From: Gemmatimonadaceae bacterium
Lineage (GTDB): Bacteria > Gemmatimonadota > Gemmatimonadetes > Gemmatimonadales > Gemmatimonadaceae
Assembly: GCA_040902005.1 (NCBI GenBank)
Contig: JBBDYA010000006.1
Location: 1 to 45,043 of the forward strand
Direction of reading: 5' to 3'
DNA length: 45,043 nucleotides
This document shows positions 10,761 through 27,800 of this stretch, piece after piece. Every line of letters begins with the position of its first letter. Position 1 is the stretch's first letter. Under the pieces are notes generated by a model, which was given only the letters and a program-made list of their open reading frames with translations, was not told the DNA's origin and did not search any database. Made by a program: the position numbers and the translations under genes.

Positions 10761-12238
10761 CGTCCCATCCTGCGCGCGGGCGGCAAGGGGGTTCGATCGG
10801 CACCGGATCCGAACGCCAGGCTCACGCCGGCGCGGAGTCGCACCTGCGACAGCGACGATGCACTCGCGTCGGGCCGCTCGCGTTGATCGTCGACGAACGC
10901 CACGTCGCTCCACACGCGCCGCTGCACCGTGGGCTTCCACTCCACGCGACCGCCGATCCAGTGACTCGTCGCGTCGTAGTACCGCAGCTCGAGGGGCCGC
11001 GCCATCGTTCCGCCGTACACATCCACCGACAATCGCTCGCCGAGCGTGCAGGTCACGGCACCATCGGCGAACCGACCCGCGGCGCCCGGCCCGTGTTCCA
11101 GCCCATAGTTGCCGTCCAGTACCCAGCGCGACCCCACCGTGGCGCGAGCACCGACGCTGGCGCGCCACCCGCGATCCTCCAGCAGGGGCACGAGCCCGGT
11201 GGACACGTTCGCTGACTCGTAGCGATACCGTTCGCCGCGCCCGTGCAACGAGAGCCGGCCGGACGGCCGCACTTCCACGGACGCGTTCAGCGCGTTGTAG
11301 GGCACGGGACTGAACGCGCCCCACAGCGTCCACAGACTGAAATACGGACGATACCGCCGCGCGCCGCCCGACACGGCGAAGCGCGGTTGCAGGTATGTGA
11401 GCGTGAGGTCCGCCGACCCGAGATGACCCTCCGCGATGTTGTAATCCAGTCCGCCGGCCGCCCGCACGGAGGCGGTGCGCGCCACGAGCGAGATCGCGGT
11501 GCGTTCGGAGACGAAGTAGTCGTCCTGTGGATCCACCTCCCGGCGGTACTCCGCGCGCACGTCCACATCGCGGCGCCGCCACGACGCCTCCGCGCCCGCC
11601 ACGAGTTGCCGGTCGCGCGGCCGCCACTCGTCGAGCGGGTTGAGCGCGGGGCTCGTCACCGGCAGCGCGGCGGCCTGCCCGAGCCCCCAGCCTCCGTACG
11701 CCGCGAAGTCGAGCGAGGCCTTGTCCCAGCGAGCGCCGAGCCACCCGCCGTCGAACCCCAGCCGCTCCAGTCGCGATGACAGCAGCTGACGACCGGCGCG
11801 CCCCGTGAATGCCGGACGTTGGTACTCGAAGTATCCCTCGATGAGCTGACCCGCCGGTTCCACGCCGGGCCACACCCGATCGCGCCCGAGGTCCGCCAGC
11901 AGCCGGCCGGTTGCGCGCAGCGTCAGCCCGGGAACGCCCAGCCCCCACATGACCATGCTCGCGGAGGTCGTCACCGGCACGCCGCGCAGTTCGGGGCCCG
12001 GCCGGAAGTAGTGGCAGTACTCCCCTGCCCCGCACCGCACCGCGTAGCCATCCGGGGTCTGCAATCCGCCGCTGGTGGAGGGCACCACCGCTCCGACCGC
12101 GATGCTGTCGGCGACGAGGCCGCGAAACGAGACCGCTTGGGTGCCCGCATCCAGACGAACGCGATAATTCTGCGCCGAGACCGGAGCGGTCCCCGTTACC
12201 ACGAGGGACACGATCGTCAGTCGGCGCCACTGCGTCAT
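10757..12238 (-). CDS. Outer-membrane beta-barrel porin-like protein of a porin-cytochrome module
   Basis: Signal peptide (VSAQ); long run of amphipathic, aromatic-rich beta strands; translationally coupled between two multiheme genes. Confidence 0.78.
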   Translation of the reverse strand: MTQWRRLTIVSLVVTGTAPVSAQNYRVRLDAGTQAVSFRGLVADSIAVGAVVPSTSGGLQTPDGYAVRCGAGEYCHYFRPGPELRGVPVTTSASMVMWGLGVPGLTLRATGRLLADLGRDRVWPGVEPAGQLIEGYFEYQRPAFTGRAGRQLLSSRLERLGFDGGWLGARWDKASLDFAAYGGWGLGQAAALPVTSPALNPLDEWRPRDRQLVAGAEASWRRRDVDVRAEYRREVDPQDDYFVSERTAISLVARTASVRAAGGLDYNIAEGHLGSADLTLTYLQPRFAVSGGARRYRPYFSLWTLWGAFSPVPYNALNASVEVRPSGRLSLHGRGERYRYESANVSTGLVPLLEDRGWRASVGARATVGSRWVLDGNYGLEHGPGAAGRFADGAVTCTLGERLSVDVYGGTMARPLELRYYDATSHWIGGRVEWKPTVQRRVWSDVAFVDDQRERPDASASSLSQVRLRAGVSLAFGSGADRTPLPPARRMGR

Positions 12239-14301
12239 CGCGGGATCGGCATGGTGAGTTTCGCCCGGTACGCGTCGGGGTCAGTGAGGAAGTGGCACAC
12301 GCTGCATTCCTGGCGGTCGTAATGGTTCGTCGCCTTCGCCGTGTGACAGGTGCCGCAGAAGGCCCGCACCGGCGTGAGCCCCGCGATCGTGGCCGGCGTG
12401 TGGCACGCGTCGCAGCGCTGGTGCGCCACCTCCAGGGTGGTATGCGCGACGCGCGGATCGGCGATCGCATGACACGCGGAACACGTTCGGCCCACGGCGT
12501 GATGCTCGCTGTGGCAATCCTGGCAGAGGGTGCGCGGCGGCACCAGGGTGACCGGAGTGGTGTGGCATTCCATGCACGACCGGGTCTCGTGGCGCGCATG
12601 CAGAAAGTCTATCGGTCGTGTCGCCGGTGATCGGCCGGGGACCGTCACGGTGATGACCGCCGGTTGTGGTGGTACGTACTCGGCGGTACGGTGACACGTG
12701 GCGCACCGGGCCGGTGTCGGCGCCTGGTGATGGCAGATTGCGCAACCGCGCGGCGGCTCGAACGTCAGTCGGCCATGGCCGTCCCCCGTCTGGTGACAGA
12801 CGAGACACGCGAGCCGCGTGTGCCTCGCGTGGGGGAACGTGTCGGCCAGCGCGGCCGGTGCGGCCGGCAGGTATGGCCCGGCGCGAGCGCTCTCTTCCCC
12901 CCCCCCTACCCCCCGGGCGTGCCCGAACCGAGCGTCATCATCGGCGTCGCTAGGGGGGGGGGACGGACCGCCGCCCCGGGCCGATCCCGAGATGACCGAG
13001 TGACGCGGCGGCGGGGACAGGGCATGCGGCGCTGGTGCGGGGGGGGGGGCTGCCGACGGCGGGGTGGGGCGGCGCAGTGCGCTGCTGGTGTCGAAGGGAA
13101 GAGGCGGGCGCAGCCGGCTCCGGGATCGCACGGTGAGGTGGCACGCCTCGCAGCTGCTGGCGTCCACCTTGGCGGCGTGCGGCGCGTGGCAGAGAACGCA
13201 CTGCCGGCCAACGTTGCGATGGCTGGCGCCCCTATGGAACGCCTCGTCCTGCCAGTTGGAATGGCACCCCGATGTGGCGCAGGTCGCGGCCGCCTCTGCG
13301 GTGCTCTTCTGCACGTGCGGGTTGTGGCACATGCCGCACGTGCCGCCGTGCGGATCCCTGTCCTCGTTGAAGTCCGCCAGCACCTGGCGCATCTCGTGGC
13401 ACCCGAGACACTCCGCCCTGCCGGGCACCAGGGTTCCGCGCGCGGAATCGCGCGTGGCGAGTGCGGGAACGTCCGCGGTGAAGCCGTGACAACTCGTACA
13501 GTGGCGAACGGTCTGGCCGGCCATCTTGCCGAGCACGATCCCCGTCTCTTCCGGCTCATGGCAACCGCTCTGGCCGCACGTTGCGGCGACTGGCTGGAAT
13601 CGATGCACCTCGACGCCGTGGCATGACACGCATTGCAGCTCGGCGAGGGCGCTGGAGTCCGACTCCAGATGCACGCGGTGGCCCGCCGTCGCCGCAATGC
13701 GCTGCCAGGTGGCCGTGTCGCCTGTGACATGGCAGCTGGCACACACGCGATCCGGCACCTTCGCGTGTTCGCCGATCTCCTGCGGCCGCTCCGCCACCCA
13801 GAGGTAGAGTTGCCGCATGCTGGCCGTCAGCGGCTGCTGATGGCACGCGTGGCACGACAGCTCGGCGTGCTTGTTCTCGAGATTGGCGAACTTCTGGAAC
13901 GCGGGGTTCATGACGTGACACCCGATGCAGAAGTCGTTCGAGTGCTGCGTATAGTTCCAGGTGGCAGCGCCCATGATGCCGGTACCGATGAGCAGCGCGA
14001 CACCGGCGGCCGCGAGCGCGAATCGAACGGCAGGGGTGCGCGACACCAGCCATGCGCGGATCTCAACGCGGCGCCGGTACAGGAACCGGAGGACGATGAG
14101 AGCAACGGCGGCGCCGACGACGACCCCGCCCATCTGCACCCACGACGGGACCGTGTTCAACAGGAAACGGACGACCTCCGCGACTCCGCCGGGGAGTGGC
14201 GACTCGACGACCACCGTGTCGAGGGTCGCGCCGTGCGTTTGTTGAAGCGCCGCTGCCGGTTGCATGACCCCGGCGGCGACGCCGGGTTGCGTGCCGATCA
14301 C
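12235..14301 (-). CDS. Membrane-anchored multiheme cytochrome c with NapC/NirT-like N-terminus (18 CxxCH + 2 CX4CH)
   Basis: Two TM helices, then YTQHSNDFCIGCHVM...CHACH. A Pro-rich linker separates 11-heme and 9-heme blocks. Confidence 0.9.
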   Translation of the reverse strand: MIGTQPGVAAGVMQPAAALQQTHGATLDTVVVESPLPGGVAEVVRFLLNTVPSWVQMGGVVVGAAVALIVLRFLYRRRVEIRAWLVSRTPAVRFALAAAGVALLIGTGIMGAATWNYTQHSNDFCIGCHVMNPAFQKFANLENKHAELSCHACHQQPLTASMRQLYLWVAERPQEIGEHAKVPDRVCASCHVTGDTATWQRIAATAGHRVHLESDSSALAELQCVSCHGVEVHRFQPVAATCGQSGCHEPEETGIVLGKMAGQTVRHCTSCHGFTADVPALATRDSARGTLVPGRAECLGCHEMRQVLADFNEDRDPHGGTCGMCHNPHVQKSTAEAAATCATSGCHSNWQDEAFHRGASHRNVGRQCVLCHAPHAAKVDASSCEACHLTVRSRSRLRPPLPFDTSSALRRPTPPSAAPPPAPAPHALSPPPRHSVISGSARGGGPSPPPSDADDDARFGHARGVGGGEESARAGPYLPAAPAALADTFPHARHTRLACLVCHQTGDGHGRLTFEPPRGCAICHHQAPTPARCATCHRTAEYVPPQPAVITVTVPGRSPATRPIDFLHARHETRSCMECHTTPVTLVPPRTLCQDCHSEHHAVGRTCSACHAIADPRVAHTTLEVAHQRCDACHTPATIAGLTPVRAFCGTCHTAKATNHYDRQECSVCHFLTDPDAYRAKLTMPIPR

Positions 14302-14320: not shown

Positions 14321-15874
14321 TCACCTACCTGACGGCGTGCGGACCACATGCATTGCGCTGTAGAACGCTTCCTTGTTCAGCCCGTCCAGCCGGGCCTGCT
14401 CCGCGGCGGACGCAGGCAGCCCATAATAACTCCTGATGTAGTCGATCGTGGCGATCATCAGCGCCCGGCACAAGAACGGGTTGTGGACCCCCTTGGAGTT
14501 GTCGGCGGTGGACTGCCCGTACTCGCCACAGAGGCGCGCATTGAACTCGGCGCCCTCGGCTGGCGTGATCGTATTGTCGCTGTTGCTCCATTCCGTCGGA
14601 GTGCTCGCCCGCACCGTGGGCAGCAGTCCGGCGTCCGTGGGCGATGCCTGCATCGAGCCGTTGGCGTTCGAGTCCAACCAGAGCTGGTCCGTGAAGGACT
14701 TCATCAGCGCGCGGGAGTCGTTGAAGATGGTGGCGGCCACACTGGCGTTGGCGTGACAGCCCGCGGTGGTGCAAGTCTGCCACGACCGCGCCGTGGCCGT
14801 GTAGGCGCACGTCTTGTCGGCTATCGGCTTGCCATCGGCGTCCAGGCATGGCACCGGGCGCATGAGGTGACCCGTTGCCTGGAACGAGAATGCCCCAGTG
14901 AGCTGATCGGTCACGGTGAATTTGGCGACGTGACATCCCGCGCAGAGCTTGGGGTTCGCCGTGGTGGCATGCGAGCCGAAGATGCGAGCGGTGTCGTAGG
15001 TGAACCCCGGCGGCCGCCAGCCGGCGAAGCCCAGCAGCATCGCCCCCTGCGGCGCATGGGGTGAGCTGGTAGACACCGTCGGCTCTCCCACGCGCAGATG
15101 GCATCGGATGCAGAGGTTCTCTTCCGGATCCGCGGCCGTCACCGCGAAGCGCAGTTGCCCGGGGTTGTTCTTCGCGTGCGGGTCGTGGCACACCGCGCAC
15201 GTCGTCGCCTGATACGCGGTCGGGTCGTCCCGCTCGATGTAGTTGTCATCGACGCCCCACTTTGCAAGCGCCTTGCGGCCGTCGTGGCAACCGGCGCAGC
15301 TCGCGTTTGCTGCCCGCGACGCGCTGACGTTCGCGTGTCTCGAGGCTGCCCATTCCTCGGCGTACGGCTGATGCGTTCCCGAGTGGCAGTCGCCGCAGTT
15401 GCCGGTGCCCGTCATGCTGAGCTTCGCGAGTGGCCGCACGAGCGAACCCTGACCGACACCCTCTACGTGCTCAAGGCCGGGTCCATGGCAGCTCTCACAC
15501 TGCACGTCGTAGTAGGTCGCTTCCTTGATCGCATCGTGTCCAGCAGTCGTCCCGGAGGCCACGTTCCCCTTGCCCGTGACCGTGTGGCACGCGTAACAGA
15601 AGTCCGCCGCCGCCGTGCTTGAGTTCAGCGTCGTGTAGGCACTCGCGTGCGCCGTGCCTTGCCAGCTTCCCTGAAAACCGGCGTGACAGTTTCCGCACGT
15701 CGTCTGCTTCGTGGCCGCGTCATAGTAGCCGAGGAATCCGGCGGCGGCGGCGTCCGGCTGATTGAACGGCGCCCGATCGCGGAACACAATCTTCTCATCC
15801 GTGCAGCCGTTCAGGAACGTCGCGACGACCAGTGTCGTCAATCCAGCCCGCGTGGTCCAGCGCGCATTGCGCAT
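14321..15874 (-). CDS. Multiheme cytochrome c lipoprotein (8 CxxCH + 1 CX4CH)
   Basis: GAGAGGGA RBS, lipobox FLNGC, heme motifs and C-terminal SKGVHNP. Confidence 0.9.
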   Translation of the reverse strand: MRNARWTTRAGLTTLVVATFLNGCTDEKIVFRDRAPFNQPDAAAAGFLGYYDAATKQTTCGNCHAGFQGSWQGTAHASAYTTLNSSTAAADFCYACHTVTGKGNVASGTTAGHDAIKEATYYDVQCESCHGPGLEHVEGVGQGSLVRPLAKLSMTGTGNCGDCHSGTHQPYAEEWAASRHANVSASRAANASCAGCHDGRKALAKWGVDDNYIERDDPTAYQATTCAVCHDPHAKNNPGQLRFAVTAADPEENLCIRCHLRVGEPTVSTSSPHAPQGAMLLGFAGWRPPGFTYDTARIFGSHATTANPKLCAGCHVAKFTVTDQLTGAFSFQATGHLMRPVPCLDADGKPIADKTCAYTATARSWQTCTTAGCHANASVAATIFNDSRALMKSFTDQLWLDSNANGSMQASPTDAGLLPTVRASTPTEWSNSDNTITPAEGAEFNARLCGEYGQSTADNSKGVHNPFLCRALMIATIDYIRSYYGLPASAAEQARLDGLNKEAFYSAMHVVRTPSGR

Positions 15875-16212
15875 AGCGTCCCTCTCGAGAGGCGTGCGAA
15901 ACGGACATCTGTGCGACCAGGCCGGGATTCGGCCTGGCTCAATAAAACGGCCCAATGAACGATCGCTCTGTCAGGGACTTCCCGGAAGCCTCTGGCCGAG
16001 TTGCACCCACATGGCCGACAAGAAATAATCCTAAGGCGCAACAGTGTGTATGCATGTAGGGCAATACCTGACAAGGTGCCGGGAGAACCGCCCTGCTTCT
16101 TCCGAGCTTTCCACCATGTCCGGCCAGGCACCGCCGACGTAACGATCAGCCGTCCGGCCTGTGCGGCAGAGGTCGTGCCACGAACCGCGCCGCGTCACCC
16201 CTCTGGAATGCG
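15875..16212. promoter_or_regulatory. Divergent promoter region between the cytochrome operon and the NapA-like operon
   Basis: Intergenic and more AT-rich; contains inverted TGTCAGG (15969) and CCTGACA (16067). Confidence 0.5.
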
Positions 16213-18549
16213 ATGAGCACTGTCGATCGGAGGTCGTTCCTGAAGGAGATGGCGGCCGCCACGGCGGGCACAGCCGCGGTTCCCGGCATGCTCGCCGGGT
16301 CCGCGACAACGTCGAAGCACTCGAGCTCGTCGGCTCCCGTCTGGGAGAAGGCGCCCTGCCGGCTCTGCGGCGTCGGTTGCGGACTCCGGGTGGCCATCGA
16401 GGGCGGTCGCGCCGTCGCCGTGCAAGGCGATCCCACGTCGGCCGTGAGCGGTGGGCTCGCGTGCGCGAAAGGTTACTACTCGATCCAGGCACTGTACGGA
16501 CGCGATCGCATCACCCGGGCGTTGATCCGTCGCGATGGTCGGCTGGTCCAGGCGCCGATCGCCGAGGCGCTCGACCTGGTCGCCAGCCGGCTTCGGGAGA
16601 CGGTTCGACAGCATGGCAAGGACAGCGTTGCTGTCTACGGCTCAGCGCAGTGGACCATTCCGGACGCCTACGTCGCCTCGAAGCTGTTCAAGGGTGGGCT
16701 CGGCACGAACAACGTGGAGACCAGCACGCGGCTGTATGGGGCAAGCGCGATGGCGGGGCTCGAGACCAGCTTCGGCCTCGACGGCGCGATCGGCTGCTAT
16801 GAGGACGCGGACCACGCCGACGCATTTGTCATCTGGGACGCCAACCTCGCCGAAACCGACCCGGTGTTCTTCTCGCGCATGCTGGACCGTCGGCGGAACG
16901 ACCCTGCCGTGCGTATCATCGATCTGACGACGCGCACCACGCGCACCAGCTACGCCTCGGATCACGTCCTGCTGCACGCGCCGCACTCGGCGATGGCGAT
17001 CGCGAACGCCATCTGCCGCGAGATCATTGCCCGCGGATGGGAGCGCCGCGATTTCGTGGACCGACACGTCGCCTTCACGCGGGGCAGTACGGACATCGGT
17101 TACGGCCGCCCCGATGACGCGCTGCTCGTTGACGAGGCCACCACCGTTTCGTTCAGCGAGTACAAGGCGTTCCTCGACTCGTCCACGCCGGCGCGCGCGC
17201 AATCGCTGTCTGGCGTACCGGCGGAGCGCATCCAGTGGCTGGCATCGGTGTACGGCGACCCGACGCGCCGGGTGATGTCCGTCTGGGGACCGACCGCGAA
17301 CCAGCACGCGCGCGGCACGTGGTTGAACAACCTGCTCTACAACATCCACCTGCTGGTCGGGAAGATCGCGGCGCCCGGGAACAGCGCGTTCTGCATCGTT
17401 GGGCAACCCAACGGTGGCAGCAGCGTGCACGACGCGGGGACGTTGACGCACACCTTGCCGCGCGGCGTCGTGACCAGCGAGGAGGACCGCCGCCGGGCCG
17501 CAACGATCTGGGACGTGCCGGTGGAGCGGATCGACGCGCGCCCCGCGCACCCCGCCCTGGGCATGCTTCGCGCGCTCGAGCGGGGCGACATCCGCTTCCT
17601 GTGGATTCAGGCGACCAATCCGATGGTGAGCCTGCCCGACATGGGACGGTACCGTCGCGCGCTGGCAAGCGACGATCGCTTCGTGGTCGTCTCTGAGGCC
17701 TATCCCACGCCGACGACGGACCTGGCAGACGTGGTGCTTCCCGCCGCGCTCTGGATCGAGCGAGAGGGCATCTACGCCAACGCCGAGCGGCGCACGCAAC
17801 ATTTCGAGCAGCTCGTCGCGCCACCGGGCGACGCGATGAGCGACGCCTGGCAGATGATCGAGGTCGCGCGCCGGCTGGGACTGTCGCGGCTCTTTCCCTG
17901 GGATCGTCGCGGGCACGTCGCGCACATCTGGGAGGAGTATCGGCGATTTCACATCGATCCGCGCAGCGCGCTCCCGCCGATCGACGAGCTGCGCGCGAAA
18001 CCCGGCGTGATGTGGCCCTTCGTGCATGGTCGCGAAACCAGGTGGCGGTACAACACCGCGCACGATCCGGCGGCAAGCCGCGCGCGCGGCGCCTTCGACT
18101 TCTATGGGTATCCGGACGGCCGCGCGCGGATCTGGCTGCGACCCCACGAGCCGCCGGCGGAATCACCGGACCGCCAGTATCCGTTCTGGCTCAGCACCGG
18201 TCCCGTGCTCGAGCACTGGGGCGGCGGTTCCCTCACGCAGCGGATCCCCACCCTGCATCGCGCGGTGCCCAGTGCGTACGTCGAGATCCACCGCGACGAC
18301 GCCCGGCGCCTGGGCATTCGTCAGGGCGAGGTCGTGCGCCTCGTGAGCCGCCGCGGCGCGCTCGAGATCGACGCGCGCATCGACTACCGCTCGCAGCCGC
18401 AGCGCGGCCAGCTCTTCGTGCCGTCGTTCGACGAATCGTTGCCAGTCCGGCGCCTGTTGTCCGACGCGTCGTGCCCCCTGTCCGGACAACCCGACCTGGG
18501 ACCGTGCGCCGTTCGCGTAGAGCGGATCGCGCAGAAGGGTAGCGCATGA
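16213..18549 (+). CDS. Tat-exported NapA-like molybdopterin oxidoreductase, atypical active site
   Basis: DRRSFLK Tat motif; CRLCGVGCG...CAKG Fe-S motif; overall NapA-like layout. The expected RxCMASA appears as RLYGASA. Confidence 0.88.
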   Translation: MSTVDRRSFLKEMAAATAGTAAVPGMLAGSATTSKHSSSSAPVWEKAPCRLCGVGCGLRVAIEGGRAVAVQGDPTSAVSGGLACAKGYYSIQALYGRDRITRALIRRDGRLVQAPIAEALDLVASRLRETVRQHGKDSVAVYGSAQWTIPDAYVASKLFKGGLGTNNVETSTRLYGASAMAGLETSFGLDGAIGCYEDADHADAFVIWDANLAETDPVFFSRMLDRRRNDPAVRIIDLTTRTTRTSYASDHVLLHAPHSAMAIANAICREIIARGWERRDFVDRHVAFTRGSTDIGYGRPDDALLVDEATTVSFSEYKAFLDSSTPARAQSLSGVPAERIQWLASVYGDPTRRVMSVWGPTANQHARGTWLNNLLYNIHLLVGKIAAPGNSAFCIVGQPNGGSSVHDAGTLTHTLPRGVVTSEEDRRRAATIWDVPVERIDARPAHPALGMLRALERGDIRFLWIQATNPMVSLPDMGRYRRALASDDRFVVVSEAYPTPTTDLADVVLPAALWIEREGIYANAERRTQHFEQLVAPPGDAMSDAWQMIEVARRLGLSRLFPWDRRGHVAHIWEEYRRFHIDPRSALPPIDELRAKPGVMWPFVHGRETRWRYNTAHDPAASRARGAFDFYGYPDGRARIWLRPHEPPAESPDRQYPFWLSTGPVLEHWGGGSLTQRIPTLHRAVPSAYVEIHRDDARRLGIRQGEVVRLVSRRGALEIDARIDYRSQPQRGQLFVPSFDESLPVRRLLSDASCPLSGQPDLGPCAVRVERIAQKGSA

Positions 18550-19358
18550 CGTCTCGCGGCCGGGGATCCGGCGTTTCGCCGATGCGCGTTTTCCTGCTCG
18601 TGTCGGCGGCCGTGGCGATCGTCGCCGTAGCGTTCGCGTCCCAGCGGGTGGCAGCGGAACGTGGGGCCGGAACGCGCGCCGCGCCCGTGGCGTTACTGGC
18701 GTCTCCCGACGTGCCGATCGCCGCCGAGGCGCAGGTGTTTCGCACCGCCGCCGGGATGCTGGCGATCGAACCGGCCCTTGGCCCGCGGCGAGCAGCGCAT
18801 CCGAGATCACTGGCCACGTGGCGATCGCTGCGCGCGTACCCGGGCGCGCCGCCGCGCATTCCGCACGGGCTCACGCCTACGGAGTTCCGCACGGGCGGTT
18901 GCACGACGTGCCACGAGCGCGGGGGGTACTCGCAGCGGTTCGGGGCCTATGTGCCGATCACGCCGCACCCCGAGATGGGCGCGTGTTTGCAGTGCCATGT
19001 GGGCGACGCCACGCTCATGGCGATCGGGCTTCCGAGCACCGATCCGAGTGCACGGTGCCGGCAGTGTCACGCGGAGGGCGCCACGCGCTGGACGGAGTCG
19101 TCGGCGTGGACCACGCTGGAGTGGCCCCAGACGGTGACGACCACGCCCGGCCAGAGCCCGCCACCGATTCCGCATACCCTGCACCTGCGCGGCAACTGCC
19201 TGGCCTGTCACGCGCCGCCAACCGCCGTCGCGGAGATCCGGACCTCGCACCCGGAGCGAGCCAACTGCCGGCAGTGCCACGTGACGGCTGCGCCGAACGG
19301 CGCGGTGTTCGTCCGTCCGGCGCCGCCCACGGCTGCCCAGAGCGGGGGGGCGCCGTGA
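18546..19358 (+). CDS. NapB-like pentaheme cytochrome c
   Basis: YPGAPPRIPH and a second PPPIPH motif; 5 CxxCH; ATGA overlap with the upstream stop. Confidence 0.85.
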   Translation: MTSRGRGSGVSPMRVFLLVSAAVAIVAVAFASQRVAAERGAGTRAAPVALLASPDVPIAAEAQVFRTAAGMLAIEPALGPRRAAHPRSLATWRSLRAYPGAPPRIPHGLTPTEFRTGGCTTCHERGGYSQRFGAYVPITPHPEMGACLQCHVGDATLMAIGLPSTDPSARCRQCHAEGATRWTESSAWTTLEWPQTVTTTPGQSPPPIPHTLHLRGNCLACHAPPTAVAEIRTSHPERANCRQCHVTAAPNGAVFVRPAPPTAAQSGGAP

Positions 19359-20074
19359 TGCGCCGCCGTGGGGCCGCGACGATGTGGCGTGTGGCGCTGC
19401 TCGCGACGGCCGTGGGCTGCGGCGATCTCCGCCGTGCGTCGGTCACCGATACCGCGCGCGCGATCGCGCCGGCGGCAGCGATGATGGATACGCTGGCCAA
19501 TGCGACGCGCGAACCTGGCGCGCTCGCGACCGTGCTGGCGGCGCCAGTGCAACACTGGAGCGGGCCCGGCGCGCGGCCATTCGAGGTCACGCTCCGAACG
19601 GCCGATCCCACCACCGCACTCTCGCGCCGGTTCGGGATGATCACGCTGCGAACGTCGCTGCGGACGCGCGCGCCCGACCTCAACCAGTACCCGTGCACGT
19701 CGTGCCACCTGGGGAACACGATCCTGGCGGACCGGCGCGCGGCCGGCGCACATGAGAACATCCGGCCGGTGCACCCGGCGCAAACCGGCGCCGTCTGCTC
19801 GACCTGTCATGCGCCAGGCAACGTCGACTTGCTGGCGCTCAGGAGCGGTGAGCGCGAGACGCTGGATCACACCTACCGGCTGTGCGCGCAATGCCACTTC
19901 TCGCAAGCGGAGTCGTGGGCGGGTGGCGCCCACGGCAAGCGGCTCGACGGCTGGCAGGGTCGTCGCGTGCTGATGGGCTGCGCCGACTGCCATGATCCGC
20001 ACAAGCCCGCGCTGGAACCGCGTATCCCATTCCGCGCGCCGCAGCTCGAACGCGCTGGAGGCCGCTCGCCATGA
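19358..20074 (+). CDS. Tetraheme cytochrome c, probable lipoprotein
   Basis: AVGC lipobox-like motif; CTSCH, CSTCH, CAQCH, CADCH. Confidence 0.85.
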   Translation: MRRRGAATMWRVALLATAVGCGDLRRASVTDTARAIAPAAAMMDTLANATREPGALATVLAAPVQHWSGPGARPFEVTLRTADPTTALSRRFGMITLRTSLRTRAPDLNQYPCTSCHLGNTILADRRAAGAHENIRPVHPAQTGAVCSTCHAPGNVDLLALRSGERETLDHTYRLCAQCHFSQAESWAGGAHGKRLDGWQGRRVLMGCADCHDPHKPALEPRIPFRAPQLERAGGRSP

Positions 20075-21054
20075 CGATCGAACGCCCGGCTCCCCCCCCG
20101 GGGCCGAACGAGACCGACGACGGCTCGGTGATGCAGAAGCGCATGGACCGACGCCGGGCGCTGGGCGTGCTCTTCGGCGGGATGGCCGCCGGCGCGCAGG
20201 CCGTGAGCGCGTGCGCGCCGATCAGCGCCATGTCAGACGAGGAGCGGGAGGTCAAGCTGCTCGCGTGGCGGGAGTACATCAAGGGAAACTATCAGTTCAT
20301 GACGGAGGCCGAACGGGCGGAGACCATCGCGCGCCTCGAACGCCTTGCGCAGGTGAAGCGCGGCCTCGACGTGACGATCCAGTCCACGGGCGCCCAGCCG
20401 GGTGTCGTCTTCGGCTACGCCTTCAACATCTCGAAGTGCAAGGGGTTTCGCAGCTGCATCGAGGCGTGCATCAACGAGAACAACCTGGACCGGCGCGCCG
20501 CGACTCAGTACATCCGCATCTTCGAGATGGCGGATGGTGTGATCGACCTCGATCACGCCGATGCCACGTTCCAGCACGAGGTGCCTGCCGAGGGACACTT
20601 CTACATGGGCACGCAGTGCTTCCAGTGCGCGGATCCCCCGTGCGTGAAGGTCTGCCCCGTTGGCGCCACCTGGCAGGAGCCGGACGGCATCACCGTCATC
20701 GACTATGACTGGTGCATCGGCTGCCGCTACTGCATGGCGGCCTGCCCGTACTGGGCGCGCCGCTTCAACTGGAGCGAGCCGGAGGTGCCCGCCGCCCTGG
20801 TGAATCCGAATCAGCACTACCTGGGCAACCGCCAGCGCAAGATGGGCGCGGTCGAGAAATGCCACTTCTGCATTCATCGCACGCGCCAGGGCCGGCTGCC
20901 GGCGTGCGCGGAGGCATGCCCGACCGGCGCGCGGGTATTCGGCAACCTGCTGGATCCGAATTCGGAGATCCGGTGGGTGCTCGCCAACAAGCGCGTGTTC
21001 CGGTTGAAGGAAGATCTCAAGACGGAACCGCGGTTCTGGTACTACACGGACTGA
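20071..21054 (+). CDS. NrfC/DsrO/PsrB-like four-cluster Fe-S protein, Tat-like signal
   Basis: MDRRRALG; CKGFRSCIEAC, CFQCADPPCVKVCP, CIGCRYCMAACP and CHFC..ACAEACP. Confidence 0.92.
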   Translation: MTIERPAPPPGPNETDDGSVMQKRMDRRRALGVLFGGMAAGAQAVSACAPISAMSDEEREVKLLAWREYIKGNYQFMTEAERAETIARLERLAQVKRGLDVTIQSTGAQPGVVFGYAFNISKCKGFRSCIEACINENNLDRRAATQYIRIFEMADGVIDLDHADATFQHEVPAEGHFYMGTQCFQCADPPCVKVCPVGATWQEPDGITVIDYDWCIGCRYCMAACPYWARRFNWSEPEVPAALVNPNQHYLGNRQRKMGAVEKCHFCIHRTRQGRLPACAEACPTGARVFGNLLDPNSEIRWVLANKRVFRLKEDLKTEPRFWYYTD

Positions 21055-21061: not shown

Positions 21062-22272
21062 GTGCACCTTCGACCCTTCGCGCGACACGCGCTGCACACG
21101 GCGACCTCCGGGGGACGGCGCTATCACCTGTGGATGGGCACCCTGACGCTCATCATGCTCGCGGGGGCGTACGCGTACGGCATTCAGCTGCGCTACGGTC
21201 TGGGCGTCACCGGGATGAACGACCACGTGAGCTGGGGACTCTACATCTCCAACTTCACGTTCCTGGTCGGGCTGGCGGCGGCCGCCATGATGCTCGTGCT
21301 TCCCGCCTACATCCTCCACGACGTGGATTTCAGTCGCGCCGTGCTCATGGCGGAGGCTGTCGCGGTGGCCGCGCTGGTCATGTGCCTCACCTTCGTGGTG
21401 GTGGACATCGGCAACCCACTGGGCGGCTGGCATCTCATGCCAGGCATCGGCTACCTGAACTGGCCGCGGTCGCTCCTGGCGTGGGACGTCCTGGTGCTCA
21501 ACGGCTACCTGGCGCTCAACCTCGCCATCCCATTCTACATCCTCTACACCCGGTACAGCGGGCGGACACCCGACAAGAAAAAGTACCTCCCCTGGATGTA
21601 CATCGCCGTCATGTGGGCGGTGAGCATTCACCTGGTGACGGCATTTCTGCTCGCGGGACTGCCCGCGCGGCCGTTCTGGAACACGGCGCTGCTGGGCCCC
21701 CGGTTCCTCGCCTCGGCATTCACCGCGGGTCCGGCGTTCGTGATTCTTCTGTTGTGGTTCATCCGGCGCGAAACGAACTACGAGATCGCCGACGGCGCGT
21801 TCACCAAGCTCGCGGTGGTCACGACGGTGGCGGCGCAGATCAACATCGTGATGCTCGGCTCGGAGCTGTTCTACAAGTTCTACTCGCCGACGCACCACGG
21901 CATCAACGCGAAGTACCTCTTCTTCGGCCTCGATGGCCACACCGCGCTGGTGCCGTGGATCTGGTCGGCGATTGGCCTGAACGTGCTCGCGACGACCGCC
22001 CTGATGATCCACCCCCTGCGCCGCAATCCGCAGTGGCTGATGCCCGCCTGCGCGGTGCTGTTCTTGAGCATCTGGGTCGAGAAGGGCCTGGGGCTGGTGG
22101 TGCCGGGGTTCATCCCGTCACCGCTCGGGGAGATCGTCGAGTACACGCCGAGCCTGGTCGAGCTGGGCGTCACGGCAGGCATCTGGGCGCTCGGCATGTT
22201 CGTGCTCACGGTGCTCGTGCGAGTGGCCCTGCCCATCGAACTGGGCGAGGCCCGCAGTCCCTACATCGATGA
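21062..22272 (+). CDS. NrfD/DsrP/PsrC-like membrane subunit; true stop uncertain (frame stays open to 24199)
   Basis: GLGVTGMNDHVSWGLYISNFTFLVG, VDIGNP, WPRSLLAWD, GPRFLASAF and YTPSLVE motifs; multiple TM helices. Homology-like sequence ends near 22270. Confidence 0.85.
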
Positions 22273-22400
22273 CGCACGGGTCACGACGATCGTGCGTCCG
22301 CGCAGCAGACGGTCCAAGCCGAAGGACACGCGCCCCGTGCGAACAGGGGGACCACGGCCGCGGGCGGCCGCCAGCGCATTCCCTCAGAGAGGTGATCGAC

Positions 22401-23357
22401 ATGACGCGACACAATCCGAACGACACCCGCTACTCGGTCGCCGCGCTCGCCGCGGGGCTGGTGGGCGGCGCCGGGCTGGCCGGCGCGCTGTTCCTGGTGG
22501 GCGCTCCGCTGCCGCTCGTGGCGGTCGCGGGCGTCGCGCTGTGGATGTTCCTCGCCGCAGCCATCAAGTACACGGACCAGTGGGAAAAGGCCGTGCTGAT
22601 GCGGCTCGGCCGCTACCGCGGACTGCGCGGCCCCGGCTATTTCACCGTCATCCCGATCCTCGATCGGATCGCGTACACCATCGATCGGCGCATCCGGACC
22701 ACCGCGTTCGGCGCGGAATCATGTCTCACGCGAGACACCGTGCCCGTCAACGTCGACGCCATCGCGTTCTGGATCGTCCGCGACGCGGAGCGCGCCGCCC
22801 TCGAGGTGCAGGATTACGACGAGGCGGTGATTCTGTCGGCGCAGACCGCGTTGCGCGACGCCATCGGCAAGCACGACCTCGCGGAGTTGATCCAGTCGCG
22901 CGTCGAGCTCGGGCACGGACTCAAGGCGGCGCTCGAGGTCAAGATGCAGAATTGGGGGATCGAGGTGCAGTCGGTCGAGATCCGCGATGTCATCATCCCG
23001 GCCGCGCTCGAGGATGCCATGTCGCGTCAGGCGCAGGCCGAGCGCGAGCGGCAGGCCCGCATCATCCTCGGCACCGCGGAGACCGAGATCGCGCACAAGT
23101 TCGTCGAAGCGGCGGACGCGTACCGCGACCATCCCGTCGCGCTGAACCTGCGCGCCATGAACATGTTGTACGAAAGCATCGTCAAGCGCGGCTCGCTGAT
23201 GGTCGTGCCGTCGGGGCTGGCCGATTCGCTGAACGTGCCCTCGCTGCTTGGTGTCGCGGGCGCGAGCGGACTCGTGCCGAAGGAGGGCCTCGATGGCACC
23301 GTTGCCCCAGCCGGGGGGGGGGGGGGGCCAGGGTCGAAGCCCGCGCCGCTGGCGTAG
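22401..23357 (+). CDS. SPFH/band 7 (slipin) family protein
   Basis: RBS GAGAGGTG; QWEKAVLMRLGR, LTRDTVPVNVDA and QAQAERERQARII. Confidence 0.92.
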   Translation: MTRHNPNDTRYSVAALAAGLVGGAGLAGALFLVGAPLPLVAVAGVALWMFLAAAIKYTDQWEKAVLMRLGRYRGLRGPGYFTVIPILDRIAYTIDRRIRTTAFGAESCLTRDTVPVNVDAIAFWIVRDAERAALEVQDYDEAVILSAQTALRDAIGKHDLAELIQSRVELGHGLKAALEVKMQNWGIEVQSVEIRDVIIPAALEDAMSRQAQAERERQARIILGTAETEIAHKFVEAADAYRDHPVALNLRAMNMLYESIVKRGSLMVVPSGLADSLNVPSLLGVAGASGLVPKEGLDGTVAPAGGGGGPGSKPAPLA

Positions 23358-23383
23358 GCGACTGGAGTCGACTGGCGACGTGG

Positions 23384-24109
23384 TCAGCGTGGCCGCGCGA
23401 GCTCCACGGCCGCGCGGATATCGGCGTCGTGGTCGGCGTACTCGGGGAGGGCGCGCGCCCGCTCCGTCGGTTCCGCGGCGACCAGTCGCCGGCGGAGGGC
23501 GGCCGCCGCCGGGGCATCCCCGCGCGCGTCGGCCACGCGCGCGGCGAGCGAGAGTCCCAGCAAGTGGTCGCGGTGGCGCGCAAGAATGGTGTCGGCCTGC
23601 GCAGCCGCGCGCGCTGCGTCACCCATGACGAGCGCCACGAGTCCCATGTCGTAGCGCCGGTGGGCGTCCAGCGGCGTGAGGACCTCGAGCGCGCCCAGTG
23701 CCATCGACCCGAAGAACGCGGCGCTGTCCGCCTTCCCTTCGCTGGAGAGCCGCATGACACGGTTGAACAGCCGATCGGCCTGTTCCTCCGGCGACATGGA
23801 CGAAATGTCCGGCGCCTGCATGGGCCTCGCGCCAAGCGGCATCGCGCCCGCGGGGCCTTGCCGCGTCTCTGCCTCGCGCGAATCGAACCCGGCCACGGTG
23901 AGCGCGACGAGCGCGAATACCGCGATCGCCGGCAGTCCCCACCGCAACGCGGGCGCGAGCGCCGACGCAGATGGCGTGGCGGCGCGCGGCCCCCCCCCCC
24001 CGTGCATGGGCAGCCCGCACTCATGACAGAAGCGCGCGTCCGGATTGAACCGCGTACCGCATTCATTGCAGAATTTCGGCGTGGGCGGCGTGGAGTTCGC
24101 CTGCGTCAT
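23384..24109 (-). CDS. Zinc-ribbon, TM and helical (TPR-like) protein, last gene of the ccm operon
   Basis: FCNECG...FCHECG, one TM segment, Ala-rich helical C-terminus. The start overlaps the ccmH stop. Confidence 0.75.
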   Translation of the reverse strand: MTQANSTPPTPKFCNECGTRFNPDARFCHECGLPMHGGGGPRAATPSASALAPALRWGLPAIAVFALVALTVAGFDSREAETRQGPAGAMPLGARPMQAPDISSMSPEEQADRLFNRVMRLSSEGKADSAAFFGSMALGALEVLTPLDAHRRYDMGLVALVMGDAARAAAQADTILARHRDHLLGLSLAARVADARGDAPAAAALRRRLVAAEPTERARALPEYADHDADIRAAVELARPR

Positions 24110-24564
24110 TGTATTCCTGCCTCCGGCGTCGTCCATCGCCGTACGAGGTACGCGACGAAAGCCAGTCCGCCGACCATGAGCAGCACCGGAAGCACGTAGA
24201 GAGCGATGTTGAGCCCCGACATCGCGGGCTCGAGCAGAATCCATTCGCCGTACCTGGAGACGAAATACGCCTTGATCTCGTCCGGTGATTCGCCCGCGCG
24301 CAGCCGGTCGCGAACCACCGCGCGCATCTGCTGGGCGAGTTCGGCCGGTGAATCCTGGATGGACTCGCCCTGGCACACCGGGCAGCGGAGCGTGGACGCC
24401 ACGGCGGTCGTCCTCGCCTCGAGTTCGTCGTCCGCAGCAGTCGGCGTCGCCGCCGCGTGAGGTATCGCGCCCAGGGCCGCGGTATCCTGCGCGAACGCAG
24501 TCGTGGCGCCGCCGAGCGCCAGGGACGACGCCGTGACTATCAGCGCGAGTGATGCATGTCTCAT
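24106..24564 (-). CDS. ccmH: Cytochrome c biogenesis protein CcmH (CcmL-type)
   Basis: LRCPVCQGESIQDS and FVSRYGEWILLEP. Confidence 0.92.
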   Translation of the reverse strand: MRHASLALIVTASSLALGGATTAFAQDTAALGAIPHAAATPTAADDELEARTTAVASTLRCPVCQGESIQDSPAELAQQMRAVVRDRLRAGESPDEIKAYFVSRYGEWILLEPAMSGLNIALYVLPVLLMVGGLAFVAYLVRRWTTPEAGIQ

Positions 24565-27645: not shown

Positions 27646-27798
27646 CTACTCATTCTCCTTGACGTGCTCCTGCCGCGAACGCGCGGCGGCGGCGTTGACC
27701 CGTCCGGCCGCGCGCGCAAGACGCACCATATAGCCAAGCAGGACCATCCACATCACCGCGTACGCCGCGATGATGAACGTCTGGTTCGACGCGATCAT
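27646..27798 (-). CDS. ccmD: Heme exporter protein CcmD (50 aa, not in the ORF track)
   Basis: MIASNQTFIIAAYAVMWMVLLGYMVRLAR...: a single TM with conserved AY and a basic tail, located between ccmC and ccmE. Confidence 0.85.
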   Translation of the reverse strand: MIASNQTFIIAAYAVMWMVLLGYMVRLARAAGRVNAAAARSRQEHVKENE

Positions 27799-27800
27799 CG

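What the first reader, a model, noticed from the sequence alone, without database searches (positions are those of the whole stretch)
16213..18549. NapA-like enzyme lacking the Mo-coordinating cysteine
Seen: NNVETSTRLYGASA, with Tyr175 (codon TAT, 16735-16737) followed by Gly. Known: NapA has RHCMASA or RLCMASA, where Cys ligates Mo. Other conserved motifs also deviate: GQPSACG appears as GQPNGGS, and TGRVLEHWH appears as TGPVLEHWG. The Tat signal, the Fe-S Cys motif and the full-length frame are intact. Inference: this is not an ordinary nitrate reductase. It may have a new substrate (AioA also lacks a protein Mo ligand), a new ligand, or be a cofactor-less scaffold like ActB/QrcB. Automated annotation would probably call it napA.
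Basis: partly seen in the sequence, partly recalled or inferred. Interest (0 to 1): 0.88.

Follow-up and report, generated by a model that had tools for sequence, protein, structure and literature searches.

The report
NapA relative without its molybdenum ligand
This gene descends from a periplasmic nitrate reductase but belongs to a large group of soil-bacterium proteins that have lost the residues which hold molybdenum and bind nitrate, so it is very unlikely to reduce nitrate although gene surveys often count it as doing so.

Summary
ORF 16213-18549 is intact (778 aa) and keeps its Tat motif and Fe-S cysteines. Tyr175 (TAT 16735-16737) sits where five solved NapAs have the Mo-ligating Cys.

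It is neither an error nor decay. None of 129 close homologues has Cys there (Tyr 114, His 13). dN/dS is about 0.13-0.17.

The clade is nested inside true NapA. Its nearest sisters are Cys-bearing Gemmatimonadota NapAs in the same operon: NapA, five-haem NapB-like cytochrome, four-haem lipoprotein, NrfC-like and NrfD-like genes.

Several other things changed with the Cys:
- the active-site Arg became His;
- three of eight pterin-contacting residues changed;
- nine of 50 superfamily-invariant positions were lost;
- the chaperone gene napD disappeared (12/12 Cys-type loci against 0/12 Cys-less);
- the subunit evolves 1.5-2 times faster relative to its partners.

Best reading (about 0.5): a non-catalytic Fe-S subunit of a quinol:multihaem-cytochrome complex, analogous to QrcB or ActB. 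Main rival (about 0.3): it still binds a pterin cofactor and acts on a new, non-anionic substrate. Sequence alone cannot decide between them.

This scan has already noted the clade in other genomes (five earlier notes). Four literature searches found no paper on it.

The parts
16213..18549 (+). NapA-derived, Cys-less MopB-family subunit (778 aa)
   Evidence: The ORF is intact. Pfam finds Molybdop_Fe4S4, Molybdopterin and Molydop_binding. The best solved relative is NapA 3ML1, E 7e-193. The AF2 model has pLDDT 90.7, and Foldseek gives TM 0.91 to 3ML1.
16213..16326 (+). Tat signal region (residues 1-38; twin Arg at residues 6-7, 16228-16233)
   Evidence: The motif DRRSFLK is present. R6 and R7 are at least 90% conserved in alignment A1. 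AF2 pLDDT is below 50 for residues 1-4 and 14-38. The cleavage site was not predicted.
16357..16470 (+). [4Fe-4S] motif C49-x2-C52-x3-C56 ... C84, followed by Lys86
   Evidence: All four Cys are kept in 120 of 120 close homologues and Lys86 in 98%. A review describes this Lys as bridging the cluster and the proximal pterin in NapA (PMC13223375 section 7).
16735..16737 (+). Tyr175 codon (TAT), at the position of the Mo-ligating Cys
   Evidence: Clade counts: Tyr 109 and His 11 of 120. Ala, Gln and Phe occur in divergent members.
16834..16860 (+). Pterin patch 1 (W208-D216): WDANLAETD in place of WG(S/A)NMAEMH
   Evidence: E. coli Gly213 corresponds to Asp209, which is Asp in 125 of 129. The family His corresponds to Asp216, which is Asp in 123 of 129. 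Asn211 and Glu214 are kept. The patch is defined in PMC13223375 section 6, and I mapped it through the alignments.
17401..17439 (+). Remodelled active-site loop G397-G409 (GQPNGGSSVHDAG)
   Evidence: D. desulfuricans Arg354 corresponds to His406 and Asp355 to Asp407. His is present in 112 of 120. This is the least confident folded stretch of the AF2 model, with blocks at 75-77.
18196..18231 (+). Pterin patch 2 (T662-S673): TGPVLEHWGGGS in place of TGRVLEHWH(S/T)GS
   Evidence: E. coli Arg720 corresponds to position 664, which is Ala 75 and Pro 44 of 129. E. coli His726 corresponds to Gly670, which is 98% Gly. Val, His and Trp are kept.
18546..19358 (+). Five-haem cytochrome c, weakly NapB-like
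   Evidence: It has 5 CXXCH motifs. Pfam NapB gives E 3.1e-4 at 21.3 bits, below the 25.1 cut-off. All 17 Cys-less loci examined have 5 haem motifs. The gene is syntenic in 39 loci.
19355..20074 (+). Four-haem cytochrome c, probable lipoprotein (start uncertain)
   Evidence: It has 4 CXXCH motifs, and its N-terminus reads ...LLATAVGC. It is syntenic.
20071..21054 (+). NrfC/DsrO-like four-cluster Fe-S protein
   Evidence: NCBIfam DsrO gives E 4e-55 at 186.8 bits, below the cut-off of 200, and QrcC gives E 2.7e-44. Pfam finds Fer4_11.
21062..22351 (+). NrfD-like membrane quinone-interacting subunit. The expected end is about 22351, but the frame stays open to 24199.
   Evidence: Pfam NrfD gives E 1.8e-30. 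It is 93% identical to the C10 paralogue. The stop codon that relatives have is missing here.
22401..23357 (+). Band 7/SPFH (stomatin-like) gene that follows NrfD
   Evidence: Pfam Band_7 gives E 1.6e-36. It is syntenic in most Cys-less loci. I took the probable start.
14321..15955 (-). Multihaem cytochrome c (8 CXXCH), probable lipoprotein, divergent from the NapA-like gene
   Evidence: A homologue lies next to the NapA-like gene in 27 of 55 loci.
12235..14301 (-). Multihaem cytochrome c (18 CXXCH) with an NrfH-like N-terminal membrane segment
   Evidence: NCBIfam NrfH gives E 1.2e-7 over residues 99-155. Haem count; synteny.
9276..12599 (-). Multihaem cytochrome c (16 CXXCH); start uncertain
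24106..29796 (-). Cytochrome c maturation genes (CcmH, redoxin/CcmG-like, CcmF, CcmC-like, CcmB)
   Evidence: Pfam hits. They lie next to the cluster in 8-11 related loci.

Best explanation
The gene encodes a descendant of a genuine periplasmic nitrate reductase catalytic subunit (NapA) that can no longer reduce nitrate.

In one lineage of Gemmatimonadota the first shell around the molybdenum was dismantled:
- the Mo ligand Cys became Tyr or His;
- the neighbouring Met became Ala or Gly;
- the active-site Arg became His;
- three pterin-contacting residues and further superfamily-invariant residues were replaced;
- the NapA-specific chaperone gene napD was lost.

The protein kept its Tat signal, its [4Fe-4S] cluster, its NapA fold and all its operon partners.

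Most likely (inferred, not shown) it no longer carries a working Mo-bisPGD cofactor. On this reading it is a structural or Fe-S relay subunit of a membrane-anchored periplasmic complex. That complex would contain the NrfD-like quinone site, the NrfC-like Fe-S protein, the four-haem and five-haem cytochromes, and this subunit. It would pass electrons between the quinone pool and the adjacent multihaem cytochromes (about 42 haem motifs) rather than to nitrate. This is the role QrcB plays in Qrc and ActB plays in alternative complex III.

Shown here: descent from NapA, loss of the residues, loss of napD, purifying selection, conserved operon. Inferred: absence of the cofactor, direction of electron flow, and the cytochromes as partners.
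For: 1. Descent. In an IQ-TREE of 51 rows, the 18 Cys-less rows form one clade (SH-aLRT 100, stem 0.27). It is nested in NapA, beside the Cys-bearing NapAs L017, L029 and L036; L029 and L036 are from Gemmatimonadota. These sisters have the same operon and every canonical motif.

2. Loss of Mo-site residues. Dd Cys140, Met141 and Arg354 correspond to Tyr175, Gly176 and His406. E. coli Gly213, Arg720 and His726 become Asp, Ala/Pro and Gly; these are three of the eight pterin-H-bonding residues called conserved in PMC13223375 section 6.

3. Invariant positions. An independent panel of 99 Cys-bearing Nap/Nas/Fdh representatives gives 50 columns that are at least 90% invariant.
- The 9 sister NapAs miss 2-3 of them.
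- The 129 Cys-less proteins miss 7-14 (median 9).
- Nine are lost clade-wide: E150, C175, G209, H216, G361, G403, G445, R664 and K763. Most of these have become variable.
- Five of the nine (C175, H216, G361, R664, K763) are also lost in a bona fide NuoG (P0261), a member of a lineage known to lack the cofactor.

4. Variable ligand position. It holds Tyr, His, Ala, Gln or Phe in different members. Early-branching members lose further pterin-related invariants: N211D in L034 and Q398L in L047.

5. napD. It lies directly upstream in 12 of 12 Cys-type loci: 10 by Pfam at E<=0.01, and L028 and L029 by BLASTP. It is absent upstream of 0 of 12 Cys-less genes and from the window's own genome. Without NapD, NapA is inactive and degraded (PMC10609526 section 3.3).

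6. Relaxed rate. The divergence of the NapA-like subunit relative to NrfD is 0.7-1.0 in Cys-type pairs (28 pairs). In Cys-less pairs at matched NrfD identity it is 1.5-1.8 (133 pairs).

7. Partners intact. The cytochromes keep 5 and 4 haem motifs in 17 of 17 Cys-less loci. The Fe-S and NrfD partners are 82-84% identical across the clade.
Against: - Of 153 sites that are at least 90% conserved in 23 Cys-type NapAs, the clade keeps 122. Fifteen of the 31 changed sites switched to a new, highly conserved residue (Tyr175, Asp209, Asp216, His406, Asp407, Gly670 and others) rather than drifting. That looks like a remodelled site rather than an empty one.
- Five of the eight pterin-contacting residues remain conserved (Asn211, Glu214, Val665, His668, Trp669). 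So do the GQP motif (97%) and Lys86 (98%), which links the cluster to the proximal pterin.
- In the core clade the other 41 invariant columns show a median of 0 further losses.
- dN/dS in the closest pairs is 0.13-0.17, hardly above the 0.10-0.15 of Cys-type pairs.
- No coordinates or ligand model were available, so the pocket itself was never examined.
- The link to the multihaem cytochromes is by neighbourhood only. The Cys-type sister L017 already has a homologue of one of them upstream.
Confidence: 0.5

Rival explanations
1. The protein still binds a Mo- or W-bisPGD (or a single pterin) cofactor without a Cys ligand, either with no protein ligand as in arsenite oxidase or with Tyr-O/His-N nearby. 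It catalyses a new redox reaction. The pocket has lost Arg and Lys and gained Asp, so the substrate would be neutral or cationic rather than an oxyanion such as nitrate. Electrons would run through the same cytochrome/NrfCD chain.
For: - Fifteen changed sites are newly and strongly conserved.
- Five of eight pterin-contacting residues, the GQP motif and Lys86 are kept.
- 41 of 50 invariant columns are kept, with a median of 0 further loss in the core clade.
- Purifying selection is strong.
- The full electron-transfer chain and the Tat signal are kept.
- The genome has MoaA and other Mo enzymes.
Against: - The residue at the ligand position is not fixed: Tyr, His, Ala, Gln or Phe.
- Arg664 and Lys763, which are 90% or more invariant across enzymes with different substrates, have become variable, and a carboxylate replaces Gly in pterin patch 1.
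- napD is gone, and no other chaperone gene was seen in the cluster.
- Some clade members have lost Asn211 or the GQP Gln.
- The subunit evolves faster relative to its partners than in Cys-type operons.
- A NuoG also keeps 35 of the 50 invariant columns, so retention of most of them says little about the cofactor.
Confidence: 0.3
2. The former cofactor pocket has been rebuilt into a different metal-binding or cation-binding site, made of the newly conserved Tyr/His175, Asp209, Asp216, His406 and Asp407 and fed by the [4Fe-4S] cluster.
For: These five residues are typical metal ligands. They are 88-98% conserved in the clade, and all fall in segments that line the Mo/pterin site in NapA (PMC13223375 section 6). 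The cluster sits beside multihaem cytochromes of the kind used for metal redox chemistry.
Against: No test of spatial proximity was possible. Position 175 varies, and early-branching members replace His406 with Ala or Asn. I know of no precedent in this superfamily (from recall).
Confidence: 0.08
3. It is still a nitrate reductase that uses another residue, such as Tyr175 or the newly conserved Cys394, as the Mo ligand.
For: - The NapA fold is retained: TM 0.89-0.96 to solved NapAs.
- The partners are the same as in Cys-type operons.
- Ser394 has changed to Cys in 83% of the clade.
- Passages of PMC12769810 and the work it cites report that NapA variants with Asp or Ser at the ligand position keep some activity.
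Against: The nitrate-binding Arg and the neighbouring Met are also lost, as are pterin contacts and napD. The NapA equivalog models score below their cut-offs. Position 175 is not fixed.
Confidence: 0.05
4. It is a decaying pseudogene, or the Tyr codon is a sequencing error.
For: The stop codon of the neighbouring NrfD-like gene is missing in this window, and the assembly holds a second copy of the whole cluster.
Against: The frame is intact. None of the 129 homologues has Cys at position 175 (Tyr 114, His 13), and the other substitutions are shared across the clade. dN/dS is 0.13-0.17. The gene occurs in 12 of 151 family genomes.
Confidence: 0.01

Closest known systems
Periplasmic nitrate reductase NapA, specifically the ~770-aa Cys-type NapAs of the operon napD-napA-(double NapB)-tetrahaem-nrfC-like-nrfD-like (loci L017, L029, L036, L024-L026, L031, L039)
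   Same: - Direct ancestry: the clade is nested in this group at 58-64% identity.
- The fold is the same.
- The Tat signal, Fe-S motif and Lys are kept.
- The four downstream partner genes are the same and in the same order.
   Different: - The Mo-ligand Cys, the Met and the active-site Arg are gone.
- Three of eight pterin contacts and nine of 50 invariant positions are changed.
- There is no napD.
- The subunit evolves faster relative to its partners.
- Three large multihaem cytochrome genes are usually adjacent.
Cofactor-less MopB subunits: QrcB of Qrc, the ActB N-terminal part of alternative complex III, and NuoG of complex I
   Same: - It is a member of the molybdopterin-oxidoreductase fold without the Mo ligand.
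- It sits in a complex with an NrfC-type Fe-S protein, an NrfD-type membrane protein and multihaem cytochromes. The subunit composition of Qrc and ACIII is from recall.
- Five of its nine clade-wide losses are shared with a NuoG.
   Different: - It is not a member of those families by sequence: the QrcB model scores 62.8 bits against a cut-off of 440.
- It arose separately and much more recently, from NapA.
- It still keeps its own [4Fe-4S] motif and most pterin-region residues.
- Absence of the cofactor is not demonstrated.
Arsenite oxidase AioA (Mo-bisPGD enzyme with no protein ligand to Mo)
   Same: It has a non-ligating residue at the ligand position and is a periplasmic Tat substrate.
   Different: The relationship is only distant: the AioA model scores 105 bits against a cut-off of 359, and Foldseek ranks AioA 44th or lower. 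The partners are different. AioA keeps a working cofactor, which is unknown here.

Membership tests
NapA (periplasmic nitrate reductase catalytic subunit) | Cys thiolate ligand to Mo (D. desulfuricans Cys140) | tested here: not met
   Tyr175 aligns with the Cys of five solved NapAs. None of the 129 clade members has Cys.
NapA (periplasmic nitrate reductase catalytic subunit) | Active-site Arg above the Mo (D. desulfuricans Arg354) and the Met next to the ligand | tested here: not met
   Arg354 corresponds to His406 and Met141 to Gly176. The clade has His in 112 of 120 and Ala/Gly in 116 of 120. The role of Arg354 is taken from PMC13223375 section 6.
NapA (periplasmic nitrate reductase catalytic subunit) | Two pterin H-bonding patches (E. 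coli 212-219 and 718-729) with eight conserved residues | tested here: inconclusive
   Five are kept (Asn, Glu, Val, His, Trp). Three are changed: Gly to Asp, Arg to Ala/Pro, His to Gly. The patches are taken from PMC13223375 section 6.
NapA (periplasmic nitrate reductase catalytic subunit) | Score above the curated cut-off of the NCBIfam equivalog models | tested here: not met
   NF010055 scores 744.1 against 904, and TIGR01706 scores 730.6 against 930.55.
NapA (periplasmic nitrate reductase catalytic subunit) | Tat signal, N-terminal [4Fe-4S] motif and four-domain fold | tested here: met
NapA (periplasmic nitrate reductase catalytic subunit) | Dedicated chaperone NapD encoded with napA | tested here: not met
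   There is none upstream and none in the genome. It is present in 12 of 12 Cys-type loci.
NapA (periplasmic nitrate reductase catalytic subunit) | Nitrate reductase activity and Mo-bisPGD content | not testable with these tools
   This needs the purified protein.
Cofactor-less MopB scaffolds (QrcB / ActB / NuoG type) | No Mo ligand and no bound Mo-bisPGD | tested here: inconclusive
   The ligand is lost and nine of 50 invariant positions are lost, five of them shared with a NuoG. Many pterin-region residues are kept, and cofactor content cannot be measured here.
Cofactor-less MopB scaffolds (QrcB / ActB / NuoG type) | Subunit of a complex with an NrfC-like Fe-S protein, an NrfD-like membrane protein and c-type cytochromes | tested here: met
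   By gene neighbourhood only: the five-gene order is found in 39 of 55 loci.
Cofactor-less MopB scaffolds (QrcB / ActB / NuoG type) | Sequence membership of the QrcB, ActB or NuoG families | tested here: not met
   QrcB scores 62.8 against 440 and NuoG 97.3 against 470. The tree places the protein inside NapA.

The most novel reading that the evidence does not exclude
The clade is a working Mo/W-pterin enzyme of a kind not yet described. It would be a NapA-derived catalytic subunit with no cysteine ligand and an acid-rich, Arg-free pocket, acting on a neutral or cationic substrate such as a metal or metalloid species. It would be wired through a five-haem and a four-haem cytochrome and an NrfCD-type module to the quinone pool, and through about 42 further haems to the cell surface.
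Probability: 0.3. Interest if true: 0.85.

Novelty: new variant of a known kind. Interest (0 to 1): 0.62.

Why it matters
**Annotation.** By my count of the table, about 37 of the 120 listed homologues carry a JGI nitrate-reductase name. The clade is common in soil and sediment Gemmatimonadota: 12 of 151 family genomes sampled, and more than 100 clusters at 90% identity. Surveys of nitrate-reducing potential that count napA homologues therefore over-count.

**Evolution.** If the scaffold reading is right, this is a young, independent case of a molybdoenzyme subunit turning into a cofactor-less part of a quinone-cytochrome complex. Its Mo-bearing sister still lives in the same phylum and the same operon. 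That makes the long-discussed origin of QrcB, ActB and NuoG experimentally approachable.

**Enzymology.** If the rival reading is right, it is a new type of Mo/W enzyme.

Five earlier notes of this scan reached similar readings on other genomes, so this window adds a further instance and new controls rather than a first sighting.

Tried and rejected
- **Moco supply as a discriminator.** MoaA is found in 151 of 151 family genomes, so it says nothing. The tally includes G007 and G026, which are flagged unpublished; without them it is 149 of 149.
- **Conserved folding salt bridge.** PMC10609526 describes NarG R108-E794. By motif inference I mapped it to Arg99 and Glu516. Both are kept in the clade, but the NuoG P0261 keeps them too, so the pair does not discriminate.
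- **Other Cys-less panel proteins.** NCBIfam scans of P0239, P0252, P0226 and P0269 gave only Fdh-alpha or NuoG-like names and no known function.
- **Expression.** No RNA holder was listed for this stretch.
- **Outer-membrane barrel.** ORFs beyond the 16-haem cytochrome (7735-8805, 5215-6288, 5799-6995) had no Pfam hit and no tblastn match in the related loci.
- **ORF 9158-9751 (-).** It matched 14 loci, but it overlaps the cytochrome gene in another frame and is probably spurious.
- **Structure.** The model and Foldseek search confirm the NapA fold but give no coordinates, so the pocket was not inspected.
- **Alignment run.** A first MAFFT --auto run timed out. I repeated it with a faster setting.
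- **Binding prediction.** No complex prediction was run, and the report does not claim tested binding.
- **Supplements.** The supplementary files of the papers I read were not opened. A residue-by-residue cofactor contact table may lie there.
Full report
**1. Observation**

The ORF at 16213-18549 (+) is open for 778 codons. It has the three Pfam domains of a molybdopterin oxidoreductase. Its best solved relatives are periplasmic nitrate reductases, led by C. necator NapA 3ML1 at E 7e-193.

The HMMER alignments to five solved NapAs put Tyr175-Gly176 opposite the Cys-Met pair. Tyr175 is the TAT codon at 16735-16737. In the D. desulfuricans chain that pair counts out as Cys140-Met141.

The Tat motif (DRRSFLK) and the C-x2-C-x3-C...C cluster motif are intact. 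The two NCBIfam NapA equivalog models match strongly but stay under their cut-offs: 744 against 904 and 731 against 931 bits.

**2. It is a clade, not an accident**

The word-indexed protein search returned 2353 hits, and the best 120 are 70-83% identical to the query. In a MAFFT alignment of these 120, the key positions read as follows:

| Position | Residues |
|---|---|
| 175 | Tyr 109, His 11, no Cys |
| 176 | Ala 99, Gly 17 |
| 406 | His 112 |
| 664 | Ala 71, Pro 43 |
| 670 | Gly 118 |

The exhaustive representative search shows a gap. One full-length representative is 63% identical. After that come ordinary NapAs at 38-43%, all with Cys-Met, Arg and TGR...HWH. Divergent members of the clade carry Ala, Gln or Phe at position 175.

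Pairwise Nei-Gojobori dN/dS in the closest Cys-less pairs is 0.13-0.17 at dS 0.58-0.70. Cys-type pairs give 0.10-0.15. dS in such GC-rich genes is rough, but the gene is clearly under purifying selection.

In a sample of 151 genomes of the window's family, 12 carry the gene (8 of 60 genera). All of them have 61-77% identity to the query.

**3. Where it comes from**

A scan of one genome per species gave 55 loci.
- In 39 of them the gene is followed, in the same order, by a five-haem cytochrome, a four-haem cytochrome, an NrfC/DsrO-like Fe-S protein and an NrfD-like membrane protein. A Band 7 gene usually follows.
- Nine more loci are cut off by contig ends.
- Seven show no partner.

Reading the NapA-like gene in 25 of these loci shows that the same operon exists with a fully canonical NapA, carrying RLCMSSA, WGNNMAEMHP, GQPSACGTVREVG, TGRVLEHWHSGS and YKKCAV. 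This type occurs in Rokubacteria, a Desulfobacteraceae MAG, a Flavobacteriales MAG, two Gemmatimonadota MAGs and one unclassified MAG.

I built a maximum-likelihood tree of 51 rows (IQ-TREE quick search, LG+G4, SH-aLRT only). The 18 Cys-less rows form one clade with support 100 on a stem of 0.27. The clade sits inside NapA, beside exactly those Cys-bearing proteins L017, L029 and L036; L029 and L036 are from Gemmatimonadota. The simplest reading is a single loss of the ligand within Gemmatimonadota.

The fifth haem of the NapB-like cytochrome is older than that loss, because L017 and L029 have it too.

**4. What changed with the cysteine**

*(a) Published roles.* A 2026 review (PMC13223375; I read passages of sections 6 and 7) makes three points:
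- D. desulfuricans Arg354 lies above the catalytic pocket as the likely nitrate site.
- Two patches H-bond the pterins: E. coli residues 212-219, with Gly213, Asn215 and Glu218 conserved, and 718-729, with Arg720, Val721, His724, Trp725 and His726 conserved.
- A Lys links the cluster to the proximal pterin.

Through the alignments, these map as follows:
- Arg354 corresponds to His406.
- Gly213 corresponds to Asp209.
- Arg720 corresponds to position 664 (Ala/Pro).
- His726 corresponds to Gly670.
- Asn, Glu, Val, His, Trp and the Lys are kept.

*(b) An unbiased count.* I used 99 Cys-bearing Nap/Nas/Fdh representatives as a panel. None of them is a sister NapA. Fifty columns are at least 90% invariant in the panel.
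- The nine sister NapAs miss 2-3 of them.
- The 129 Cys-less proteins miss 7-14 (median 9).
- Nine are lost clade-wide: E150, C175, G209, H216, G361, G403, G445, R664 and K763.
- At the other 41 columns the core clade shows a median of 0 further losses. Early branches lose more, including N211D and Q398L.

*(c) Comparison with Cys-type NapAs.* Against 23 Cys-type NapAs, 153 sites are at least 90% conserved. The clade keeps 122 of them. Fifteen switched to a new conserved residue and 16 became variable. The changed sites fall in a few segments around the known Mo/pterin contacts.

*(d) A scale from a known cofactor-less protein.* A protein that NCBIfam scores as NuoG (P0261) keeps 35 of the 50 invariant columns. 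It shares five of the clade's nine losses: C175, H216, G361, R664 and K763. Retention of most 'invariants' is therefore no proof of a cofactor, and the losses overlap those of a lineage known to lack one.

*(e) napD.* A small ORF directly upstream of napA is NapD in 12 of 12 Cys-type loci.
- Ten were identified by Pfam at E<=0.01, seven of them above the cut-off.
- L028 and L029 were identified by BLASTP to the others.
- None of 14 upstream ORFs in 8 Cys-less loci is NapD.
- No tblastn match was found upstream of 12 Cys-less genes (best E 0.013, on the wrong strand).
- None was found in the window's genome.

According to PMC10609526 (passages of section 3.3), NapA is inactive and degraded without NapD.

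*(f) Rates.* I measured divergence of the NapA-like subunit relative to NrfD. In Cys-type pairs the ratio is 0.55-1.03 (28 pairs). In Cys-less pairs it has a median of 1.52 where NrfD identity is 0.7-0.8 (43 pairs) and 1.81 where it is 0.8-0.9 (90 pairs).

*(g) Fold.* An AlphaFold2 model built on a 64-row alignment has mean pLDDT 90.7 and pTM 0.91. Foldseek puts NapA structures first, with TM 0.91 to 3ML1 and 0.96 normalised on 2V45. The least confident folded stretch is residues 391-410, which is the remodelled loop. No coordinates were available, so the pocket was not inspected.

**5. Context in the window**

Divergently upstream lie three multihaem cytochrome genes:
- 14321-15955, with 8 CXXCH motifs, a probable lipoprotein;
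- 12235-14301, with 18 CXXCH motifs and an NrfH-like N-terminus;
- 9276-12599, with 16 CXXCH motifs.

Downstream, on the other strand, lies a ccm cytochrome-maturation cluster.

Homologues of the three cytochromes lie next to the NapA-like gene in 27 of 55 loci. Twenty-six of these are Cys-less, and the other is the Cys-type sister L017, which has one of the three. The association is therefore strong but not exclusive.

The assembly holds a second complete copy of the cluster on contig C10, at 61-93% identity per gene. Its NapA-like gene is also Cys-less.

The genome has no canonical NapA. Its other MopB proteins are:
- a Sec-type Fdh-like protein;
- a DMSO-reductase-like protein;
- an ActB-like fusion;
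- NuoG.

**6. Interpretation**

That the protein is not a nitrate reductase is, in my judgement, about 0.9 likely. What it does instead is open.

The data for loss of the cofactor are:
- a variable residue at the ligand position;
- loss of substrate-independent invariants that a NuoG has also lost;
- new carboxylates and lost Arg/Lys around an anionic cofactor;
- loss of napD;
- faster evolution;
- further decay in early branches.

The data against are:
- 15 newly fixed residues;
- retention of most pterin-region residues and of the cluster-to-pterin Lys;
- no further decay in the core clade;
- dN/dS near that of real NapAs.

I put the scaffold/relay reading at 0.5, a still cofactor-bearing enzyme with a new non-anionic substrate at 0.3, a rebuilt metal site at 0.08, residual nitrate reduction at 0.05, and decay or error at 0.01.

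**7. Known or new**

Four full-text searches found no paper that describes a Cys-less NapA clade. I also read passages of two phylogenetic studies, PMC12769810 and PMC10100899. PMC12769810 selected NapA homologues from isolated organisms and the PMC10100899 tree uses cultured genomes only. Neither mentions such a clade. The searchable library does not cover most subscription journals.

This scan has met the clade before. Notes e1-3653108, e1-5026248, e1-2391453, e1-3653109 and e1-5026249 describe it in other genomes with similar readings. Notes such as e1-770858 describe the Cys-type operon with NapD, and that gave me the lead to test napD.

- the independent-panel count of invariant columns;
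- the NuoG scale;
- the matched-divergence rate comparison;
- the 12/12 against 0/12 napD contrast;
- the point that the core clade is a stable remodelled state rather than a freely decaying one.

Noticed in passing
window 21062-24199 (+), around 22349-22354: The NrfD-like gene has no stop where relatives do. In 26 related loci the frame ends 26-29 codons after the shared end, with the tail ...RPVRT[RK]*. The C10 paralogue reads AAATAG there and the window reads GGGGGA. The frame then stays open for 1045 codons in all, running out of frame across the Band 7 gene. I could not tell whether this is a real stop loss or an assembly error.
   Followed up: partly
own genome, contig C10:2753-16803 (outside the window): A second complete copy of the nine-gene cluster is present: three multihaem cytochromes, the Cys-less NapA-like gene, two cytochromes, Fe-S, NrfD and Band 7. 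Per-gene amino-acid identity to the window's copy is 61-93%. It could be a true paralogue or a co-binned relative (the assembly's contamination estimate is 2.5%).
   Followed up: partly
proteins P0239, P0269, P0252, P0226, P0248, P0261 (representative library, not in the window): Other members of the Nap/Nas/Fdh superfamily also lack the ligand Cys. They carry Tyr, Tyr, Ser, Glu, Gly and Glu respectively. Four of them, together with the degenerate P0133, also lack the Arg of the TGR motif. P0261 scores as NuoG, and the rest score as Fdh-alpha-like with unknown function.
   Followed up: partly
window 12235-14301 (-) and 9276-12599 (-): Two very large multihaem cytochromes have 18 and 16 CXXCH motifs. 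The first has an NrfH-like membrane-anchored N-terminus, so it could be a second, independent quinol-oxidising entry point. The mechanical ORFs overlap by about 360 bases, so the start of the second is uncertain.
   Followed up: no
window 149-1225 (+) and 1430-4105 (+): A tyrosine recombinase (phage-integrase family) and a Ser/Thr protein kinase with PD40 beta-propeller repeats lie at the left end. They have no evident link to the respiratory cluster.
   Followed up: no
window 22401-23357 (+): A Band 7/SPFH (stomatin-like) gene follows the NrfD-like gene in most Cys-less loci. tblastn detected none in the Cys-type loci L017, L024-L026, L029, L031, L036 or L039. It may be a second acquisition specific to the Cys-less type.
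   Followed up: partly
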